64,000 nucleotides of DNA from the IMG/VR virus record IMGVR_UViG_2703718774_000012; one strand, given 5' to 3'. The stretch comes from a virus. Taxonomy: Duplodnaviria; Heunggongvirae; Uroviricota; Caudoviricetes. This document shows positions 42,627 through 52,268 of this stretch, piece by piece. A program made the translations under genes and the position numbers. The notes below the pieces were generated by a model that searched no databases, had not been told where the DNA came from, and was given only the letters and a program-made list of their open reading frames with translations. Within the stretch, counting starts at the first letter, position 1; each line of letters begins with the position of its first letter.

Positions 42627-43670
42627 TTAACCTATTGCTACTGGTTTTAACAAACCAGCATCAAGTAGCTTGCGAGTTAACCACTGCTGGCCTTTACCCG
42701 TTAATTGGGGCGTCAGCCGTATCTGGTAGCCATCTTCATCATCCAGCACCACTTCTTTCACCGTGAAATATCCGGCGTTGATGTACTGTTGGCGCGGTAC
42801 GTTTTTGCGCGCACCAAAAGCCATGAGAATGCCGTTCTGGCGCAACCATGAGAAAAGGGCGTTTTGCTTAAGTCCAACGACCTTTGCAAAGTTCCCGATC
42901 AGGATTCCATTAGCCGCTGATACCCGGTCGGCAAAATCGACTTTAGGGGCTGCGGCCACCAGCTGTTGTTCCAACTGCATTTTCTGTTCTGCCAACTCGG
43001 CAGCCAGGCGTAGAGCTTCTGGTAATGTTTGGGGGATCGATGGGGTAGGGGAGTTTGCCTGCTGCAATTCTTCCAGTTTGTCGATCAGCGAACGGCGGAC
43101 GGCTTTTGATTCGCGTGCGGCGACTCGCAGGGCTTGTTTGTAGGTCATGGTTATGACAACCATAGGCGTACCGCCACCTGGCGGCACGGTTGCACTTTTT
43201 GTGTAACCGTCCTCACCTTCTAATTCGTCGAGTATTTTTTCGATGAATTTGTTGTTCCGAACCTCTGGTTCCCCACATAACTTACGCGCTTCATTGACCA
43301 TCTTTAACAGTGTCTGGCTGTCGATTGTGTCTCCAGTGTTGGAGATAACATTCACAGCTGGTGATGGCGTAGCTGAAGCAACAGGTGCTGTTTTTTCAAC
43401 ATTCAAATTATTACCGGTCATTCTGCGCGCCTCCTTTCTCATTTCTGCTGCCACTGTTGCGTAACGTAGACGTCCTTGTTCAATCAAATAATCCCTGATC
43501 TCGGCTATCAGTAGCCTGTTGATCACAGCCTTATCTGTTCGGGTATAAAAACGTCTGGTTATCATGAAATAGTTGGCAATTGCGCCGGGGATCTCCCGTG
43601 TCGGCATACAGGTTGTATGCAAAGCGATCGCTTCGGCTATTTCATTACGGGTGACGAGAGGTTTTTTCAT
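42627..43670 (-). CDS. ant: antirepressor Ant (347 aa)
   Basis: C-terminal antirepressor domain shared with KilA; translationally coupled to icd (ATGA overlap); downstream of c4-like RNA. Confidence 0.6.
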   Translation of the reverse strand: MKKPLVTRNEIAEAIALHTTCMPTREIPGAIANYFMITRRFYTRTDKAVINRLLIAEIRDYLIEQGRLRYATVAAEMRKEARRMTGNNLNVEKTAPVASATPSPAVNVISNTGDTIDSQTLLKMVNEARKLCGEPEVRNNKFIEKILDELEGEDGYTKSATVPPGGGTPMVVITMTYKQALRVAARESKAVRRSLIDKLEELQQANSPTPSIPQTLPEALRLAAELAEQKMQLEQQLVAAAPKVDFADRVSAANGILIGNFAKVVGLKQNALFSWLRQNGILMAFGARKNVPRQQYINAGYFTVKEVVLDDEDGYQIRLTPQLTGKGQQWLTRKLLDAGLLKPVAIG

Positions 43671-43888: not shown

Positions 43889-43938
43889 AGTTACGGCCTC
43901 ACAATCAGGTTTAACAACCTGCTACCCGCTGTCAAACA

Positions 43939-44016
43939 GGTGGCAGGACGTGACAGGGTTGACAGACTGGCGATTGTGAAACCAGCAGGCCGAAGCCTCC
44001 CCATCACGCCCCACCA
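43939..44016 (-). ncRNA. c4: c4-like antisense repressor RNA of immI (~78 nt)
   Basis: Minus strand GGTGGGGCG...CACAATC...CTGTCAAC...CCTGCCACC: loops complementary to TTGACAG and GATTGTG repeats found upstream (~44085-44105) and at the icd RBS (~43895-43935); closing stem GGTGG/CCACC. Confidence 0.5.
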
Positions 44017-44202
44017 TAATTTGGGCGTAACGCGGTTTAACGGACACAAAAATACCGCAATATCGGAAATCTGCGGTTGTCCGCACAATCATTCAGGCTG
44101 TCAAACCTGGTCGCAGAATTTGCTACGACGGCGGAACTATAAGCCTGAACGATTAAAAGGTCAATATGATGCGAAAAGATAGCATTCGCGACTTAAAAAT
44201 AC

Positions 44203-44219: not shown

Positions 44220-44315
44220 GCTTGTTTAATAAATGCACAATTGGATCTAATAACCTCTTTTTTTTAAAGGCGAAAATATGTACCCTAAATGAGTTATAAG
44301 GCAGGTGAGGTTATA

Positions 44316-44807
44316 ATGAGAAAACTATTACTACCGTTATTATTTATGGCTGGGACTGTTAATGCAGCATCAAGCGTGAAGGAGATTTGTACCGATTATA
44401 CGAAATACCTTGGGCACGTTTACGGCTTTGCTGTCAGTCAAGACGAATCCATGCGCAAGAAGTTACTGTCAGATATGAAACGTCTTAAACTTTCTGAAGC
44501 GATGGTGCAGCAAGAACTATATAAAGTCGCAACCAACGAAAATGCTAAATATCAATATTCTCGCCTATTAAATCCCGACGCAAACGAGATCAATCGAAGC
44601 ACTTTCGATTATATGGTAAAGGCATGCGAAACCGCTCCTGATTTTGCTATCCCTAGCTGGGGTGTGCTGGTGGCGAGCAATGCCGTTAATAAAGAAGATG
44701 TTGGAAGAAATGGCATTGACTCAATAAGAAATGCCCCAGGAATGCGCCATCAAAACGTACAGGGTACGCTTGAAGAACGAGCCAGGGGGCCGGGTGTAGC
44801 CCCATAA
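44316..44807 (+). CDS. secreted protein of unknown function (signal peptide)
   Basis: Start MRKLLLPLLFMAGTVNAAS with GGTGAGG RBS; AT-rich gene; C-terminus carries PGMR..VQGTLEERARG motif also present in the tape-measure protein. Confidence 0.45.
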   Translation: MRKLLLPLLFMAGTVNAASSVKEICTDYTKYLGHVYGFAVSQDESMRKKLLSDMKRLKLSEAMVQQELYKVATNENAKYQYSRLLNPDANEINRSTFDYMVKACETAPDFAIPSWGVLVASNAVNKEDVGRNGIDSIRNAPGMRHQNVQGTLEERARGPGVAP

Positions 44808-44895
44808 TTTAATAAATAATATTAAATTCTCTGGGCATAGTGGATCTAACAATATGGACTATGCCTATAATATCTAAAAACAAAAGGATAAAAAT

Positions 44896-45402
44896 ATGAA
44901 ATTGTATAAGTCATTGTATAGCTTTTTATTAATGTTCTCTTTTCTGCCATTATCAGCAATGGCAGGTTCTACCGTTTGGACGGTAGGAGGTGAGCAAGGG
45001 TGGAGAGAAATCTCTGCAACCAATGACGATGGTTACACAATTAACTTTTCCTGTGATGCTGGAGCAAGGGAAGGTTCAGAAGATCATATCGCTGGAAGAA
45101 ATTTGTATGTAAGCGGAGGAAAAGAGAATGCCGATTTTTCTACACGCGACACAATATCACGTAAAGCAGATGTAATTACTTTAATTGTTGGCCCGGATAG
45201 TTTTAATATTGGCACGCAAAACACTGCTCCTAATCGTAGGGAATGGTATTCATTTTGGAAGGCAGTGTCATCTACAAATGAAAAAAAAATAGATGTATAT
45301 ATCGGTTCGAGTCGAATCACATCATTCACTCTGGATGGTATTTCCAGTATTTATACAGAAGCTAAAAATGACGGGTGTTTAAAACAAGATGACGGTGAAT
45401 AA
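44896..45402 (+). CDS. secreted protein of unknown function (signal peptide)
   Basis: MKLYKSLYSFLLMFSFLPLSAMAGS; contains A9 homopolymer in coding sequence. Confidence 0.5.
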   Translation: MKLYKSLYSFLLMFSFLPLSAMAGSTVWTVGGEQGWREISATNDDGYTINFSCDAGAREGSEDHIAGRNLYVSGGKENADFSTRDTISRKADVITLIVGPDSFNIGTQNTAPNRREWYSFWKAVSSTNEKKIDVYIGSSRITSFTLDGISSIYTEAKNDGCLKQDDGE

Positions 45403-46573
45403 AGTGAAGGATATTAAAAAACTTGCACTTGGCTCAGTAAGCGATCTCTATAATAGAGATTCAAATATTACCTGGCGTGATAATTTAAGTAAAATCAAAA
45501 TGCCAGGATATACATCGGCAAGTGATTTATTAAAATCAGAATATGCTTCTAATAATTTGGTTAGACAGTTGGCAGAACTGCAAAAAAACGCAATCATTCC
45601 ATCGTATAGAGAACATATGGCAAACTTGCAAGAACAGTTAAGAATAGGGCGGCTAGCTCAAGAACAAATAGCAAGATTGAATTTGCAATCGTTACTTAGT
45701 GATTCTGTTAAAAAACAGCTTGCGAACATGACGAGCTTGAGAAGAATAAATAGCAAGCATCGTGAATTTCTTGAAATTCTACAGAAACAGGCCAAGGTTT
45801 ATCCCCCGCATGATGCAAATAAATACATTCAAATGCTAAGGAAGCAGGCAGAAATTGCTATGCCGTTACGAAACCAGTTCGAGATGCTTAATAAGCAAGC
45901 TGGTTTAAATAACATGCAAGCAATACTTAATGAATTGCGACAAAATGTAAGTCATAAGATAGATTTAAACAATGAAATAAAAGAATCATTAAAACAATAT
46001 ACCCTAGCGCAAAAGGCTTCATTACATCAAATAATGGAGCAAAGTCTTTCATCAATTGCACAGGCTTATGTCGAAGGTGCTATTGAAACATCTCACAACG
46101 AAAGTGATGTTCAAGACAAAGGATTAAATAAATCCAGTCCGACGTTCATTGATTCATTTAAGTCGCTCCCTCACCCGCTTCAGTTTATTATTATGTGGCT
46201 TTTAACAGAAGTGGTGCTTGGCGCTATTGCTGATTATGCAAAAGAACAAATCTTATCGCAAATACACAAGACAGAATCATATTCTGTATCCCTATATGAG
46301 GATGCACCAATATCAAAACAAAAATTAATTAAAGAAAACACAGAAATTAAGTGGGAAGATCTCAATGGTTTTAGGTTTATAACTGGTGATAACGTAAGAT
46401 TACATGTCAGTCCTTCTTTAAATAGTGAAGTGATTGAATGCATTGGCAAAAACACAATTGTTGCTATTTTAGATAAGAAAGATCGTCAATGGCTTTACGT
46501 GCAGGTTAAATCAGGGGATGAGTTTATTACTGGTTGGATTACACGAACATACACAAAGCCTCTTAAGGCTTGA
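45389..46573 (+). CDS. membrane-anchored protein with coiled-coil region and C-terminal SH3-like domain
   Basis: Internal TM LQFIIMWLLTEVVLGAIADY; C-terminus ...VRLHVSPSLNSEVIECIGKNTIVAILDKKDRQWLYVQV..GWI resembles bacterial SH3. Confidence 0.45.
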   Translation: MTVNKVKDIKKLALGSVSDLYNRDSNITWRDNLSKIKMPGYTSASDLLKSEYASNNLVRQLAELQKNAIIPSYREHMANLQEQLRIGRLAQEQIARLNLQSLLSDSVKKQLANMTSLRRINSKHREFLEILQKQAKVYPPHDANKYIQMLRKQAEIAMPLRNQFEMLNKQAGLNNMQAILNELRQNVSHKIDLNNEIKESLKQYTLAQKASLHQIMEQSLSSIAQAYVEGAIETSHNESDVQDKGLNKSSPTFIDSFKSLPHPLQFIIMWLLTEVVLGAIADYAKEQILSQIHKTESYSVSLYEDAPISKQKLIKENTEIKWEDLNGFRFITGDNVRLHVSPSLNSEVIECIGKNTIVAILDKKDRQWLYVQVKSGDEFITGWITRTYTKPLKA

Positions 46574-48893: not shown

Positions 48894-51800
48894 ATGGAAA
48901 GAAAAAACGCCAATATTGACGATGTTATAAGGACAGTTGAAACCGCCAGCGCGAAAGAGCTGGAAGAGCTTGCAGGTATTCGGGAAGCTGTTGAAGATTT
49001 GAAAGGGGAACGAGTTGCAACTGTTGATCCTGTCTCTCGCAGTGTGTCGGCATTAAATCGCACAATCGAAAATTCCCGGCCAGACTTTGTGGCCAATGCG
49101 CCATCAGTAGACCCTATTGTTGACGCAATGAAACGGCTTAATTTAGGGGACGTTTCTCGTGTAGTTCAGGAGGATGTTGATCTACAGGAACCGCAGGCCA
49201 AATCAACTACGCGAAAGGGTAAAAAACGACGCAAGAAGGCTATAACAGAAGATGTAAAGGCGCAACGGACCGAAGCAGCCGAACACGCTCGCGAAATGTT
49301 CGGTCAAAAAGGCGGTGCGCAAAAAAGCCAAAACCAACGCGATGCGCGTGGTCGTTTTATTGGAAAGTCAGGGAGTAAGGCCGCAGCGGAAGATGCCCGT
49401 GCTGAACGTGCTGAAAAGGCCTGGCGCAAAGAGGATGATGAGCGTCTAAATGCTGAATCAGGTTTATTAAAAAAACTGTCAAAAGTAGCTGAAGGCATAG
49501 GTAACCCTTCAGAGACTCGTGCCGTCGATGCGTTAGGTTATGCCGTTGCTGGTCCATTGTGGGCAGCAGGGAAGGAGCTTGGCGGGATATCAAAAGAAGT
49601 TGGTGGATCGCTTAATGGTGCCAGAAAGTCTATTGCCGATGTGATTCGTGGCAATGACGATAACAGCCGTAGAAAAGGTTTTTTTAGGCGTAAATCGCAA
49701 AATAGTGCCGATGTCGTTCAGGTTAACACCCAAAAACGGACGGTTCAGGAACTTCAGGAGCAGACCAGCGAAATTAAAGAGGGCAATGACAAGATTCTCC
49801 GTGCCCTTGATCAGATAGCCAAAAACACCGGTAAAAAGAAGGGCGGCTTGCTGTCCAAACTATTTAGCCTGTTAGGGAAGGGGGCCGGTGGCGTCGCGTC
49901 GTTGTTAATGGGGCGTGGCATGCTGAAAAAAGCTGGAGCACTCGCTTTTGGCGCTCTGGGGGCAAAGAAACTTGTAGGAATGCTACGCGGTGGTGGCAAG
50001 AAGACTCTCGCTCATGAAGGCGGAGATTTGGCTGCCCGGGCAGCAGGTAAACTTGGATTAAAGGCAGTTGGTAAAGGGGCGTTACGCGCAATTCCCCTAG
50101 TCGGCACAGTGGCTGGAGGTATTTATGGTGCGGTAACCGGTTGGAATGATACAGAAGCGCAACGTCGAGCGTTTGGGCTTAAATCAGGACAAGATCCATC
50201 ATTCCAGCAAAAAGCCGCTTATACGTTAGCTAATGTTCTTGATATGGGGGGACTGGTATCTGGTATTAGCAGCGCCATTGGTGAGGTTCTCAAATCACTT
50301 GGATTTGAGGATATCGGCAATATGTTGCAATCATTTTCGACGGAAAGTATTGCCCTGGCCATTGATAGTGGGATTACCAACTTAGAAACATATATTTCTA
50401 ACCTTGGCGACACCATTTCTACCAAGTTCGATGATTACACAGCAAAGATTGGTGATGCTGTTTCAGCATGGTTTAGCGATACATCTAATAAGCTGCTTGA
50501 AAAGCTGGATGCCATCAAAGACTTCTTTACTGTCGATAACCTGAAACAGGTTTTCAGTGATGCAATTGATAGTGCAATTGATTTCATTAAGAACCCAGGG
50601 AAACACATTAAAGAGGCGGCTGGTAATATTTGGGATGGGGTTAAAAATTTACCAGGTAAAGCATTAGATGCAGCGGTTGATGCCGTTAAAAATACCCCTG
50701 CGGCAATGATTGTATCAAAAATACCCAATCCGATCGGCGAGGCTAATGCGAAAGAAATCACTCCAGAGTCAAAAGTTCCGGTTAATAGCCACCAGGGGAC
50801 ATCTGATTCTAAAACTGAATCCGATGCCAAACAGACTAATATTGCTGCCCGCGTGATATATGCGGCCCTGGATATGGCGAAAGATAGCAATAAAACAGTT
50901 AAAGAAACTGCTAATCAGATTATCAATGCAAATGCCGTAGAAACAGGAAATAAAGCAGCACAAACAATTGATGCTGCCTTGGGCCAGTCTGCTACAGGTA
51001 AGGAGGAAGCATTAAGTGCATATGAGATAGATAAACGTCGATTTAACAATGGCAAGGATGTTTCTTTGCCAAAATTAAATGCTGCCGGATACCAATGGAT
51101 TTCTGACAATGCCGATTATTTTGATGAGCTTGAACGTAAGTATGGGCTTGAAAAAGGGATTCTGTCAGCAGTTGCATCCGCAGAGTCTAGTGCAGGCCAG
51201 AGAACTGGAAATCCAGTAGACAAAAACGGGAACAAACTTTCATCTGCCCTTGGGGCTTTTCAGATCACTAAAGGTACAAGGGAGGATCTTGGACTCAGCG
51301 ATGCTGATGCCATGGATACACGAAAAGCAGCTGATGGTGCCGCCAGATACCTAAGTATGCTGATGAACCGTTATAACGGTGACCAGGGTCGTGCAATAGC
51401 TGCCTATCATGCTGGTATGGGGCATGTTGATAAGGGGAGAGTAGTCGCAGGTACCGGCGAATATGTTACTCGTGTCAGAGGGTATCAGCAGATGCTCAAT
51501 AATGGTGCCGTTTATGGCTCTAAGGTAGATCATAGCGCACCAGCAATTTACGAAAAGATACCTGATAACGCCGTTATCGATCAGTCTACTGGCCTGGCGT
51601 TTACCCCTGGTGATAGCCCGTTTGAGAAAGGCGGTCTGGTCGACAAAATCGGCAATGCTGTTGGCGTTAACGATCTGGTCAACAAATTCATGAATGGCCG
51701 GGGGATGCGTCGGGAAGTCGTTCAGGGAACGCTAGAAGAACGTGCACGAGGGAAGGGGACCGCAACAGCAGCTGGCAATGTGTATGTTGATACTCCGATG

Positions 51801-52268
51801 CCAGTTGAAGAGGCGCGTCCGGTGGCCAACAACTCAAGTTACTTTGACCATCTCGGCGCACAAATGGGGATTGATGGACTATTCGATAAACTCCGCAACT
51901 CGCCGGGGATGCGGAAAAATAATGCGCCTGAACCAGCCTCCACGTCCCAGGTGACGACTGCCGCCAACGATTTGCAGCAACCAACCGGTCGTATGCAGAT
52001 AGACGGGCAGGTTATTAGTGACCTTGGCGGTTCCGGTGCCAAGCCGACAATGCAGTTGGCTGATAATACCGTTTCACTTGATGGTGAAACGAAGCGGCTG
52101 TTTGCGCAGATGACCTCATTGCTTGCCAGGATTGAAGAGCACACTAAAGACTCGGCGAAAGGCCAGGGAACTGTCGTAAAGGTCAGCACGCCTCAGCCGG
52201 GCGTTATGCGCACGGTACCACTGTCAATTGATGATCCGTTGATGAATGACTACGCGAGAGTTGATTGA
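48894..52268 (+). CDS. tape-measure / injection protein with lytic transglycosylase (SLT) domain (P1 Sit-like)
   Basis: 1124 aa; Gly/Lys-rich N-terminal third; SLT signature AVASAESSAGQ...GAFQITKGT...AAYHAGMGHV. Confidence 0.7.
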   Translation: MERKNANIDDVIRTVETASAKELEELAGIREAVEDLKGERVATVDPVSRSVSALNRTIENSRPDFVANAPSVDPIVDAMKRLNLGDVSRVVQEDVDLQEPQAKSTTRKGKKRRKKAITEDVKAQRTEAAEHAREMFGQKGGAQKSQNQRDARGRFIGKSGSKAAAEDARAERAEKAWRKEDDERLNAESGLLKKLSKVAEGIGNPSETRAVDALGYAVAGPLWAAGKELGGISKEVGGSLNGARKSIADVIRGNDDNSRRKGFFRRKSQNSADVVQVNTQKRTVQELQEQTSEIKEGNDKILRALDQIAKNTGKKKGGLLSKLFSLLGKGAGGVASLLMGRGMLKKAGALAFGALGAKKLVGMLRGGGKKTLAHEGGDLAARAAGKLGLKAVGKGALRAIPLVGTVAGGIYGAVTGWNDTEAQRRAFGLKSGQDPSFQQKAAYTLANVLDMGGLVSGISSAIGEVLKSLGFEDIGNMLQSFSTESIALAIDSGITNLETYISNLGDTISTKFDDYTAKIGDAVSAWFSDTSNKLLEKLDAIKDFFTVDNLKQVFSDAIDSAIDFIKNPGKHIKEAAGNIWDGVKNLPGKALDAAVDAVKNTPAAMIVSKIPNPIGEANAKEITPESKVPVNSHQGTSDSKTESDAKQTNIAARVIYAALDMAKDSNKTVKETANQIINANAVETGNKAAQTIDAALGQSATGKEEALSAYEIDKRRFNNGKDVSLPKLNAAGYQWISDNADYFDELERKYGLEKGILSAVASAESSAGQRTGNPVDKNGNKLSSALGAFQITKGTREDLGLSDADAMDTRKAADGAARYLSMLMNRYNGDQGRAIAAYHAGMGHVDKGRVVAGTGEYVTRVRGYQQMLNNGAVYGSKVDHSAPAIYEKIPDNAVIDQSTGLAFTPGDSPFEKGGLVDKIGNAVGVNDLVNKFMNGRGMRREVVQGTLEERARGKGTATAAGNVYVDTPMPVEEARPVANNSSYFDHLGAQMGIDGLFDKLRNSPGMRKNNAPEPASTSQVTTAANDLQQPTGRMQIDGQVISDLGGSGAKPTMQLADNTVSLDGETKRLFAQMTSLLARIEEHTKDSAKGQGTVVKVSTPQPGVMRTVPLSIDDPLMNDYARVD

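What the first reader, a model, noticed from the sequence alone, without database searches (positions are those of the whole stretch)
44731..44807. Short motif PGMR-x3-VQGTLEERARG shared by an island protein C-terminus and the tape-measure protein
The secreted island protein ends ...RNAPGMRHQNVQGTLEERARGPGVAP. The tape-measure protein contains ...NGRGMRREVVQGTLEERARGKGTATAAG at ~51692-51752, plus a second SPGMR shortly after. The DNA is diverged, so this is not a recent duplication. It could be a processing/targeting signal, a recombination scar, or a shared interaction peptide.
Basis: seen in the sequence. Interest (0 to 1): 0.55.

Follow-up and report, generated by a model that had tools for sequence, protein, structure and literature searches.

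The report
Exported prophage protein copies tape-measure peptide
In a P1-type phage-plasmid, a small exported protein encoded beside the immunity region carries a conserved copy of a roughly 35-residue peptide from the phage's own tail tape-measure/injection protein, which suggests (untested) that lysogens block incoming P1-like phages by mimicking that peptide.

Summary
The window is a P1-like phage-plasmid. The "island protein" (44316-44807) is a full-length relative of P1 SimA, which in P1 is only a 52-aa remnant. The "tape-measure protein" is Sit (48894-52268).

The two share about 40 homologous columns (hhalign E 1.7e-10), including an exact 11-mer, VQGTLEERARG. Six of those 11 codons differ synonymously. 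dS between the copies is saturated and dN is 0.16-0.43.

A profile search of 1.84 billion representative proteins found the motif only in these two P1-group families. It is conserved in every Sit examined, and its N..GMR.Q core in every intact SimA-like allele. In both AlphaFold models it lies in a low-confidence, flexible segment. It does not track the swappable SLT domain. Own-genome pairs are slightly more alike than cross-genome pairs (p = 0.03-0.06), including in a divergent phage where the two genes lie 18 kb apart.

Best reading, inferred and not shown: a periplasmic superinfection-exclusion protein that mimics a linear Sit motif and so competes for Sit's partner during genome entry. 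No paper in the searchable library mentions the motif or a full-length SimA family, so I count it as a new variant of a known kind of system.

The parts
44316..44807 (+). SimA-like gene: a 163-aa precursor (an upstream in-frame ATG at 44289 would give 172 aa). It is the full-length relative of the 52-aa P1 SimA remnant.
   Evidence: phrog_3933 E = 2e-114. Identical to P1 SimA over the first 45 residues. P1 DNA homology ends at about 44455. Shine-Dalgarno AGGTGAGG lies before 44316. This allele, ending ERARGPGVAP*, occurs in about 15-16 of 69 IMG/VR loci.
44316..44366 (+). Sec-type signal peptide MRKLLLPLLFMAGTVNA|ASS. It has no lipobox Cys, so the protein is predicted to be soluble in the periplasm.
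   Evidence: Read from the sequence. Hydropathy peak at residues 3-22. The N-A-x-S cleavage region is invariant across the family.
44370..44678 (+). Conserved all-helical domain with two invariant cysteines and no recognisable relatives.
44712..44795 (+). The shared motif in the SimA-like protein: GIDSIR-NAPGMRHQ-NVQGTLEERARG-PG. Half A is N..GMR.Q and half B is V(Q/E)G(T/S)L..RA.G.
   Evidence: pLDDT is below 50 over almost all of the motif in the model. DNA homology with the 215-aa allele ends at 44795, immediately after the motif.
48894..52268 (+). sit: the tape-measure / structural injection transglycosylase, 1124 aa.
   Evidence: phrog_2533 matches end to end. P1 synteny pmgC-tub-pmgB-sit-pmgA-bplA. 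Sit was detected in virions and assigned as the tape measure (PMC9024508). It is essential by CRISPRi (PMC10695390).
50079..50291 (+). Glycine-rich hydrophobic segments of Sit (residues 396-417 and 444-466), which are candidate membrane-insertion elements.
   Evidence: Kyte-Doolittle scan. The analogy with the transmembrane segment of T4 gp29 is an inference.
51117..51434 (+). SLT lytic transglycosylase domain of Sit (residues 742-847). This is an exchangeable module.
   Evidence: Pfam PF01464 E = 2e-14. pLDDT 70-89. It is 68% identical to a D6-type Sit but only about 40% to the P1/Ro157 type, although the motif equals the P1 type.
51660..51782 (+). The shared motif in Sit, full copy: VGVNDLVNKFM-NGRGMRRE-VVQGTLEERARG-KGTATAAGNV (residues 923-963).
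   Evidence: There are 14 invariant residues across nine divergent Sits. The motif residues have pLDDT below 50; only the helix just upstream of them is above that.
51867..51914 (+). Second, half-A-only copy in Sit: GIDGLFDKLRNSPGMR (residues 992-1007). It lies inside an insertion of about 65 residues found only in P1-type Sits.
   Evidence: (E = 0.006).
43936..44142 (-). Context: the C4 antisense RNA and its a1/b1 targets (immI immunity control region), transcribed divergently from the SimA-like gene.
   Evidence: Rfam RF01695 at 68.4 bits and RF03163 at 56 bits.
44896..46573 (+). Island companions. One is a 168-aa exported protein (a YfjT/PF27224-type protein occupies the equivalent position in other loci). 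The other is a 394-aa protein with one transmembrane helix and a C-terminal SH3 domain. Both genes are low in GC (38% and 35%).
   Evidence: A YfjT-family gene follows the SimA-like gene in loci L009-L016.

Best explanation
The small protein is the intact form of P1 'SimA'. It is an exported, periplasmic protein encoded in the variable sim (superimmunity) slot beside the immI region of P1-like phage-plasmids. Its helical domain is followed by a flexible tail carrying a homologous copy of a short linear motif from Sit, the phage's tape-measure/injection protein. The motif consensus is h..h.N..GMR.(Q/E).V(Q/E)G(T/S)(L/M)..RA.G.G. During infection the C-terminal part of Sit (SLT domain, motif, C-terminus) is expelled into the periplasm. 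I propose that the Sit motif docks there onto a partner needed for genome entry. The partner could be a host envelope protein, or Sit itself during channel assembly. The resident SimA-like protein would display the same peptide in the same compartment. It would then act as a competitive decoy or dominant-negative, excluding superinfecting P1-group phages after adsorption. Shown: homology of the motif, its restriction to the two families, purifying selection on both copies, predicted disorder, the export signal, the genomic position, and independence from the SLT module. Inferred: the exclusion function, the compartment in which the two meet, the competition mechanism, and the identity of the partner.
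For: 1. Identity of the genes: P1 synteny and annotation, SimA N-terminal identity, and the C4 RNA next door. 2. Real homology limited to about 40 columns: hhalign 96.9%, E = 1.7e-10, BLASTP 1e-7. 3. Exclusivity: the motif profile searched against 1.84e9 representative proteins returns only Sit-like and SimA-like proteins plus four repeat artefacts. The Sit C-terminus occurs only in P1-group phages. The SimA-like family occurs almost only on non-mobilizable plasmids of about 72-128 kb, the P1 size range. 4. Selection: dS is saturated and dN is 0.16-0.43 between the paralogous copies. One SimA-like motif (L089) differs from a D6-type Sit motif by dN 0.16, less than Sit orthologues differ from each other (0.20). 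5. Conservation: 14 invariant motif residues in nine divergent Sits. N..GMR.Q is near-invariant in the SimA-like family. 6. The window allele and the 179-aa alleles end just after the motif, while other tails vary, so the helical domain plus the motif is the constant unit. 7. Both models put the motif in low-pLDDT flexible segments with the same helix / GMR loop / short helix pattern. 8. Co-variation: exact permutation p = 0.031 for six full-motif lineages. A unique L->M change is present in both proteins of IMGVR_UViG_2871745582_000001, where the genes are 18 kb apart on opposite strands. 9. Compartment: a signal peptide on the small protein and hydrophobic segments N-terminal to SLT and motif in Sit. 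10. Precedents: P1 Sim blocks DNA entry (references cited in PMC8546580), and T4 Imm binds the T4 tape measure (bioRxiv 10.64898/2026.03.06.709160).
Against: There is no functional data for any full-length SimA-like protein. The protein shown to confer superimmunity in P1 is SimC, which is unrelated and lacks the motif, so the exclusion role rests on gene position and export alone. Co-variation is weak: p = 0.062 for all nine lineages, p = 0.079 before the divergent lineage was added, and n is small. SimA-like alleles keep RARG where D6-type Sits have RAYG. Some alleles (L014-L016) have lost half B entirely. The disorder calls come from shallow alignments (17-18 sequences) and monomer models. 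No partner has been identified. A lysogen that makes the decoy also makes Sit during its own lytic growth, although that happens in the cytoplasm.
Confidence: 0.42

Rival explanations
1. Spackle-like inhibitor of the tail peptidoglycan hydrolase. In Sit the motif acts in cis on the adjacent SLT domain as a regulatory or groove-binding peptide. The periplasmic SimA-like protein uses the same peptide in trans to inhibit the SLT domain of incoming phages, stopping cell-wall penetration.
Confidence: 0.13
2. Shared partner, but not exclusion. Both proteins bind the same envelope component, for example peptidoglycan or a periplasmic chaperone. The SimA-like protein would be a moron serving the host or the prophage in some other way, such as envelope remodelling or lysis timing.
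For: The selection, exclusivity and flexibility evidence is the same as for the main explanation. The island genes are low-GC accessory cargo, accompanied by other exported or membrane proteins (PMC9603915).
Against: The family is restricted to P1-group elements that carry the matching Sit. That is expected for a function aimed at P1-type phages and not for a generic envelope-binding function. The gene occupies the slot that holds simBC in P1.
Confidence: 0.15
3. Common processing or recognition signal. The motif is a site recognised by one protease or modification enzyme, so that both Sit and the SimA-like protein are cleaved or modified there.
For: The motif is flexible, exposed and rich in basic residues and glycine. 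Tape-measure proteins of some phages are processed (my own recollection, for example lambda gpH).
Against: Sit matures in the cytoplasm and is used in the periplasm, while the SimA-like protein is exported, so a shared phage protease is unlikely. The dibasic RR in P1-type Sit is not conserved (RH, RQ). The P1 virion proteome paper reports no Sit processing in the passages read.
Confidence: 0.08
4. Evolutionary relic. An ancient capture of a sit fragment by the sim-locus gene (a recombination scar) persists without any functional link between the two copies.
For: The copies are homologous. The sim slot is a recombination hot spot with breakpoints beside the motif. Sit itself contains a partial internal duplication of the motif.
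Against: dS is saturated while the peptide is held (dN/dS well below 1), even between paralogous copies. The motif is kept in lineages only about 50% identical elsewhere in the protein. It is kept when the gene has moved 18 kb away. Within-genome similarity is slightly raised.
Confidence: 0.1
5. Chance or low-complexity match.
For: The segment is short and rich in G, R and E.
Against: About 2e-7 exact 11-mer matches are expected. Profile cross-hits and hhalign E = 1.7e-10. Positional conservation holds in all homologues.
Confidence: 0.01

Closest known systems
P1 sim (superimmunity) operon simABC; SimC is the active protein
   Same: The genomic slot is the same, between c4/icd and pmgC. The first 45 residues are identical to P1 SimA, including the signal peptide. 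The protein is exported. P1 Sim is reported to block superinfection after adsorption (references 56 and 57 in PMC8546580).
   Different: P1 SimA is a 52-aa stump. The active P1 protein, SimC, has no sequence similarity to this protein and lacks the motif. No phenotype is known for the full-length SimA-like family.
T4 Imm, which binds the T4 tape-measure protein gp29
   Same: It is a phage-encoded exclusion protein acting directly on the tape-measure-dependent genome-entry step (bioRxiv 10.64898/2026.03.06.709160).
   Different: Imm is an inner-membrane multi-helix protein that binds a folded tape-measure domain, and it shares no peptide with gp29. The protein here is predicted to be soluble and periplasmic, and it copies a linear tape-measure motif.
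T4 Spackle (gp61.3), inhibitor of the gp5 tail lysozyme
   Same: A small exported helical protein that excludes phages by neutralising the tail-borne cell-wall hydrolase. P1's equivalent hydrolase is the SLT domain of Sit (PMC9024508).
HK97 gp15 and TP-J34 Ltp, exclusion proteins whose target is the tape-measure protein (titles seen; mechanisms recalled from memory)
   Same: Prophage morons that block DNA entry in a tape-measure-dependent way.
   Different: One is a membrane protein and the other a lipoprotein. Neither has reported sequence mimicry of the tape-measure protein.
Short-linear-motif mimicry by viral proteins (a general concept)
   Same: A short, disordered, selectively maintained peptide copied between a target protein and a competitor.
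   Different: Classic cases copy host motifs. Here a phage would copy its own, and its relatives', virion protein in order to exclude them.

Membership tests
SimA-domain family (phrog_3933; 'simA domain protein' in RefSeq and UniRef) | Sequence match to the family profile over the signal peptide and the helical domain | tested here: met
   phrog_3933 E = 2.1e-114, residues 10-171 against profile positions 1-162 of 213. The protein is 58-99% identical to 25 family members.
SimA-domain family (phrog_3933; 'simA domain protein' in RefSeq and UniRef) | Location in a P1-group element, typically between the immI region (c4/icd) and pmgC | tested here: met
   One divergent phage carries the gene elsewhere, next to hrdC/dmt.
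P1 Sim (SimC) superimmunity protein | Homology to SimC | tested here: not met
   The P1 SimC sequence (264 aa) shows no visible resemblance to this protein and lacks both motif halves. No SimC-type family appeared in the PHROG hits for the window protein.
P1 Sim (SimC) superimmunity protein | Confers exclusion of P1 after adsorption | not testable with these tools
   This needs plating and DNA-entry assays.
Sit / P1-type tape-measure protein with an SLT domain | Full-length profile match, an SLT domain, and synteny pmgB-sit-pmgA | tested here: met
   phrog_2533 matches 1-1124 against 1-1130. PF01464 at 53.6 bits. Synteny with P1.
Tape-measure-binding membrane exclusion proteins (T4 Imm type) | Integral inner-membrane helices | tested here: not met
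   The only hydrophobic segment is the cleavable signal peptide.
Tape-measure-binding membrane exclusion proteins (T4 Imm type) | Physical binding to the tape-measure protein | not testable with these tools
   No multimer prediction or binding assay was available.
T4 Spackle-type periplasmic inhibitor of a tail hydrolase | Fold similarity to Spackle | tested here: not met
PTP-like phytase (PF14566) | Score above the gathering threshold and a catalytic CX5R P-loop | tested here: not met
   26.8 bits against a cut-off of 27, covering only profile positions 46-132 of 158. The sequence around the invariant Cys is CETAPDF, with no Arg. The model is all-helical.
Short linear motif (SLiM) used in mimicry | Short, in a disordered region, conserved more than its flanks, present in otherwise unrelated proteins | tested here: met
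   Homology covers only 40 columns. pLDDT is below 50 over the motif in both models. The motif is a conservation island between variable linkers.
Short linear motif (SLiM) used in mimicry | Both copies bind the same partner competitively | not testable with these tools
   The partner is unknown, and the motif profile hits no solved structure.

The most novel reading that the evidence does not exclude
P1-group prophages exclude their own kind with a periplasmic decoy that displays a copy of a linear docking peptide from the invading phage's tape-measure protein. That would be self-mimicry as a superinfection-exclusion mechanism. It would also identify Sit residues about 923-963 as a previously unknown functional element of genome delivery by a contractile-tailed phage, and give a handle for finding its envelope partner.
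Probability: 0.35. Interest if true: 0.78.

Novelty: new variant of a known kind. Interest (0 to 1): 0.6.

Why it matters
How the tape-measure protein of a contractile-tailed phage crosses the periplasm and opens the inner membrane is still largely unknown. P1 is a workhorse of E. coli genetics and the prototype of a widespread family of phage-plasmids that carry resistance genes. A conserved linear motif that appears only in Sit and in an exported protein at the superimmunity locus offers three testable things. First, a candidate function for an abundant 'hypothetical protein', present on at least 118 of the 267 plasmids that carry some form of the gene. Second, a defined 40-residue element of Sit to mutate. 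Third, a peptide bait for finding the host or phage partner required for P1 DNA entry. If the decoy model holds, it adds peptide self-mimicry to the known exclusion strategies. It would also help explain which P1-like plasmids can coexist with or displace one another.

Tried and rejected
1. Chance or low complexity: rejected.
2. Recent duplication or gene conversion: rejected, because dS is saturated and nucleotide identity is 55-68% in every pair.
3. Motif present in host or other phage proteins: the profile search of 1.84e9 representatives found none. The PDB sequence search found none. tblastn of the Sit C-terminus finds only P1-group phages.
4. The search for homologous proteins with a 76-aa Sit fragment scored only 6 candidates and was uninformative.
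5. The genome-contig scan gave only 4 loci. The metagenome scan for P0039 gave none.
7. The PTP-like phytase Pfam hit is sub-threshold and incompatible with the sequence and the model.
8. NCBIfam and PADLOC returned no hits for the three island proteins.
9. SLT domain as the motif's partner: made unlikely by SLT module swapping without any motif change.
10. The P1 genome paper (Lobocka et al. 2004) could not be retrieved, so I cannot exclude that it remarks on the similarity.
11. My first co-variation script matched the wrong 'SMR' site. It was corrected, and one search should be ignored.

Full report
**What the window is.** The region around the finding has P1 gene order: ant (42627-43670, minus strand), icd, the C4 antisense RNA and its targets (Rfam RF01695 at 43936-44021 and RF03163 at 44090-44142, minus strand), then on the plus strand a three-gene island, then pmgC, tub, pmgB, sit, pmgA, bplA, 16, R, S and U. 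Megablast gives 96% identity to P1 across icd/c4, but that identity stops at about window 44455, inside the first island ORF. The 1124-aa ORF (48894-52268) is Sit. It matches phrog_2533 end to end and has a Pfam SLT domain at residues 742-847. Gonzales et al. detected Sit in P1 virions and assign it as the tape-measure protein (PMC9024508). It is essential by CRISPRi, whereas simA, simB and simC are not (PMC10695390).

**The observation.** BLASTP aligns 41 residues with 21 identities (E = 1e-7) and separately aligns the second SPGMR site (E = 0.006). PHROG profiles of each family hit the other protein at the motif. Profile-profile comparison of the two family alignments gives 96.9% probability, E = 1.7e-10, over 40 columns and nothing outside them. 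From window composition, about 2e-7 exact 11-mer matches are expected anywhere in the window, and neither motif half occurs in any other frame. Six of the 11 identical codons differ, nucleotide identity is 49/78 over 26 codons, and dS is 1.6 against dN 0.20.

**What the small protein is.** P1 SimA (52 aa) is identical to this ORF for 45 residues and then terminates, so P1 simA is a stump of the gene that is intact here. P1 then carries simB and simC. SimC, the protein associated with superimmunity, is unrelated and lacks the motif. The family is phrog_3933 (E = 2e-114).
- It has 28 clusters at 90% identity in the large protein collection, some named 'simA domain protein'.
- It occurs in 267 PLSDB plasmids, 263 of them non-mobilizable and about 72-128 kb. 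Of these, 84 carry the full 215-aa form, and the 158 below 90% identity are mostly the 48-aa remnant.
- It occurs in 69 IMG/VR loci.
- The window allele ends ERARGPGVAP*, three residues after the motif. It is an established variant, found in about 15-16 of the 69 viral loci. Its DNA diverges from the 215-aa allele at 44795, immediately after the motif.
- A Shine-Dalgarno sequence precedes ATG 44316, so the product is probably 163 aa.
- It begins with a classic signal peptide (MRKLLLPLLFMAGTVNA|ASS) with no lipobox.

**Anatomy of Sit around the motif.** Nine divergent Sits (57-80% identical to the window over the C-terminal third) share a conserved block after the SLT domain: GLVDKIG..VGVNDLV.KFMN.RGMR..VVQGTL.ERA.G.GT.T..GNV. 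It has 14 invariant residues within the motif and variable linkers on both sides. P1-type Sits, including this one, carry an extra insertion of about 65 residues that duplicates the first half (YFD.LGAQMGIDGLFDKLRNSPGMR). The AlphaFold model folds the SLT domain (pLDDT 70-89) but leaves the motif residues below 50. Their pattern is helix, GMR loop, short LEERA helix, as in the SimA-like model, and the motif is not docked on the SLT domain. Glycine-rich hydrophobic segments at 396-417 and 444-466 lie N-terminal to all of this. By analogy with T4 gp29, I infer that the SLT-motif-C-terminus part operates in the periplasm.

**Exclusivity.** A 35-position profile built from motif copies of both families was searched against 1.84 billion representative proteins. 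It returned 13 hits at E <= 0.001. These were Sit-like proteins (1081-1124 aa), SimA-like proteins (176-222 aa), fragments of them, and four tandem-repeat artefacts. tblastn of the Sit C-terminal 264 residues against 50,697 phage genomes finds only the P1 group.

**Selection and co-variation.** In seven lineages with the full motif, the two proteins share 13-17 of 26 motif residues, and most identical residues use different codons. Over 22-33 codons, dN is 0.16-0.43 with saturated dS. A divergent SimA-like allele (P0028/L089) reads LAERAYGKGTSTAMGNL. That is 27/35 identical to a D6-type Sit at only 64% nucleotide identity, and its dN of 0.16 is lower than the 0.20 between Sit orthologues.

The most divergent representatives found, P0039 (SimA-like) and P0038 (Sit), have close relatives (90% and 99% identical) on one 94.4-kb viral contig. 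There the two genes are about 18 kb apart on opposite strands, and the SimA-like gene sits beside hrdC/dmt and not beside immI. Both carry NAPGMRHQ and a GSM in place of GTL. The L->M change is unique to that genome and present in both proteins, with 68% nucleotide identity and dS 2.5. An exact permutation test of own-genome against cross-genome motif identity gives p = 0.031 for the six full-motif lineages (14.7 against 13.4 of 22) and p = 0.062 for all nine lineages. Before the divergent genome was added it gave p = 0.079. This signal is suggestive, not decisive.

**Independence from the SLT domain.** The window's SLT domain is 68% identical to that of a D6-like Sit but only about 40% identical to the P1/Ro157 type. 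Its motif is 100% identical to the P1/Ro157 motif. D6-type motifs likewise occur with both SLT types. This argues against the SLT domain as the motif's specific partner.

**Interpretation.** The data show a selectively maintained linear peptide, homologous in the two proteins and found only in them. One is the phage's tape-measure/injection protein. The other is an exported protein that occupies the superimmunity slot in P1-group elements. Both copies should be in the periplasm when a second phage injects. The most economical mechanism is exclusion by mimicry: the resident protein competes with incoming Sit for whatever the motif binds, either a host envelope factor or Sit itself during channel assembly. 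I put this at about 0.4.

Precedents exist for exclusion proteins that act on the tape-measure step. T4 Imm binds gp29. HK97 gp15 and TP-J34 Ltp do the same kind of thing (titles; mechanisms from memory). P1 Sim is reported to block DNA entry. To my knowledge none of them copies a tape-measure peptide. The rivals are a Spackle-like SLT inhibitor, a shared envelope partner without exclusion, a common processing site, and a functionless relic. They are listed with their tests. Chance is excluded.

**Limits.** No experiment exists for any full-length SimA-like protein, and the partner is unknown. The structure models rest on shallow alignments and single chains. The co-variation sample is small. 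The P1 genome paper could not be read. No accessible paper mentions the motif.

Noticed in passing
window 44289-44455; L001 (P1) 9413-9571: P1 'simA' (52 aa) is a truncated remnant of a 163-246-aa exported protein that is intact in many P1-like plasmids. The annotation 'putative superimmunity accessory function' rests on a stump.
   Followed up: yes
window 51051-51560 (Sit residues about 720-890): The SLT domain inside the tape-measure gene is a mosaic module. The window's version is 68% identical to a D6-like Sit but only about 40% to P1/Ro157, while the flanks are P1-type. Two SLT types are shuffled among P1-group phages.
   Followed up: partly
window 51783-51980 (Sit residues about 964-1029): P1-type Sits carry an insertion of about 65 residues, absent from D6/SJ46-type Sits, that partially duplicates the helix and GMR half of the motif.
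   Followed up: partly
window 44896-45402; L009-L016 just downstream of the SimA-like gene: A second exported protein (PF27224 YfjT family in the precomputed annotations) follows the SimA-like gene in L009-L016, and a similar-looking exported protein (phrog_3429, no Pfam hit) does so in the window. The two may work as a pair.
   Followed up: no
window 45389-46573: A 394-aa protein with one transmembrane helix (residues 259-285) and a C-terminal SH3_3 domain (sub-threshold, 26 bits against a cut-off of 27). Its gene has very low GC (35%). It matches phrog_7086 and also occurs in L007. Function unknown.
   Followed up: no
window 44825-44872: A perfect 8-bp inverted repeat (GGCATAGT, 16 nt, ACTATGCC) followed at once by TATAAT, between the SimA-like stop codon and the next gene. 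It could be an operator, promoter or terminator element.
   Followed up: no
L090 10001-10531 and L091 7601-10993 (IMGVR_UViG_2871745582_000001): A very divergent P1-like phage (its Sit is 36% identical to the window's over the C-terminal 405 residues) carries the SimA-like gene next to hrdC (RdgC) and dmt and not at immI, with no C4 RNA nearby. The gene therefore moves as an independent moron yet keeps the Sit-like motif.
   Followed up: partly
window 44289-44804: The Pfam PTP-like phytase model (PF14566) scores 26.8 bits against a cut-off of 27 on this helical domain, and the precomputed annotations assign it to many family members. This is probably a false family assignment spreading through databases.
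   Followed up: partly
P0002, P0004, P0007, P0008, P0017: Several 205-aa 'variants' from Logan assemblies are frameshifted within or just before the motif. They are probably assembly errors or pseudogenes and not real alleles.
   Followed up: no
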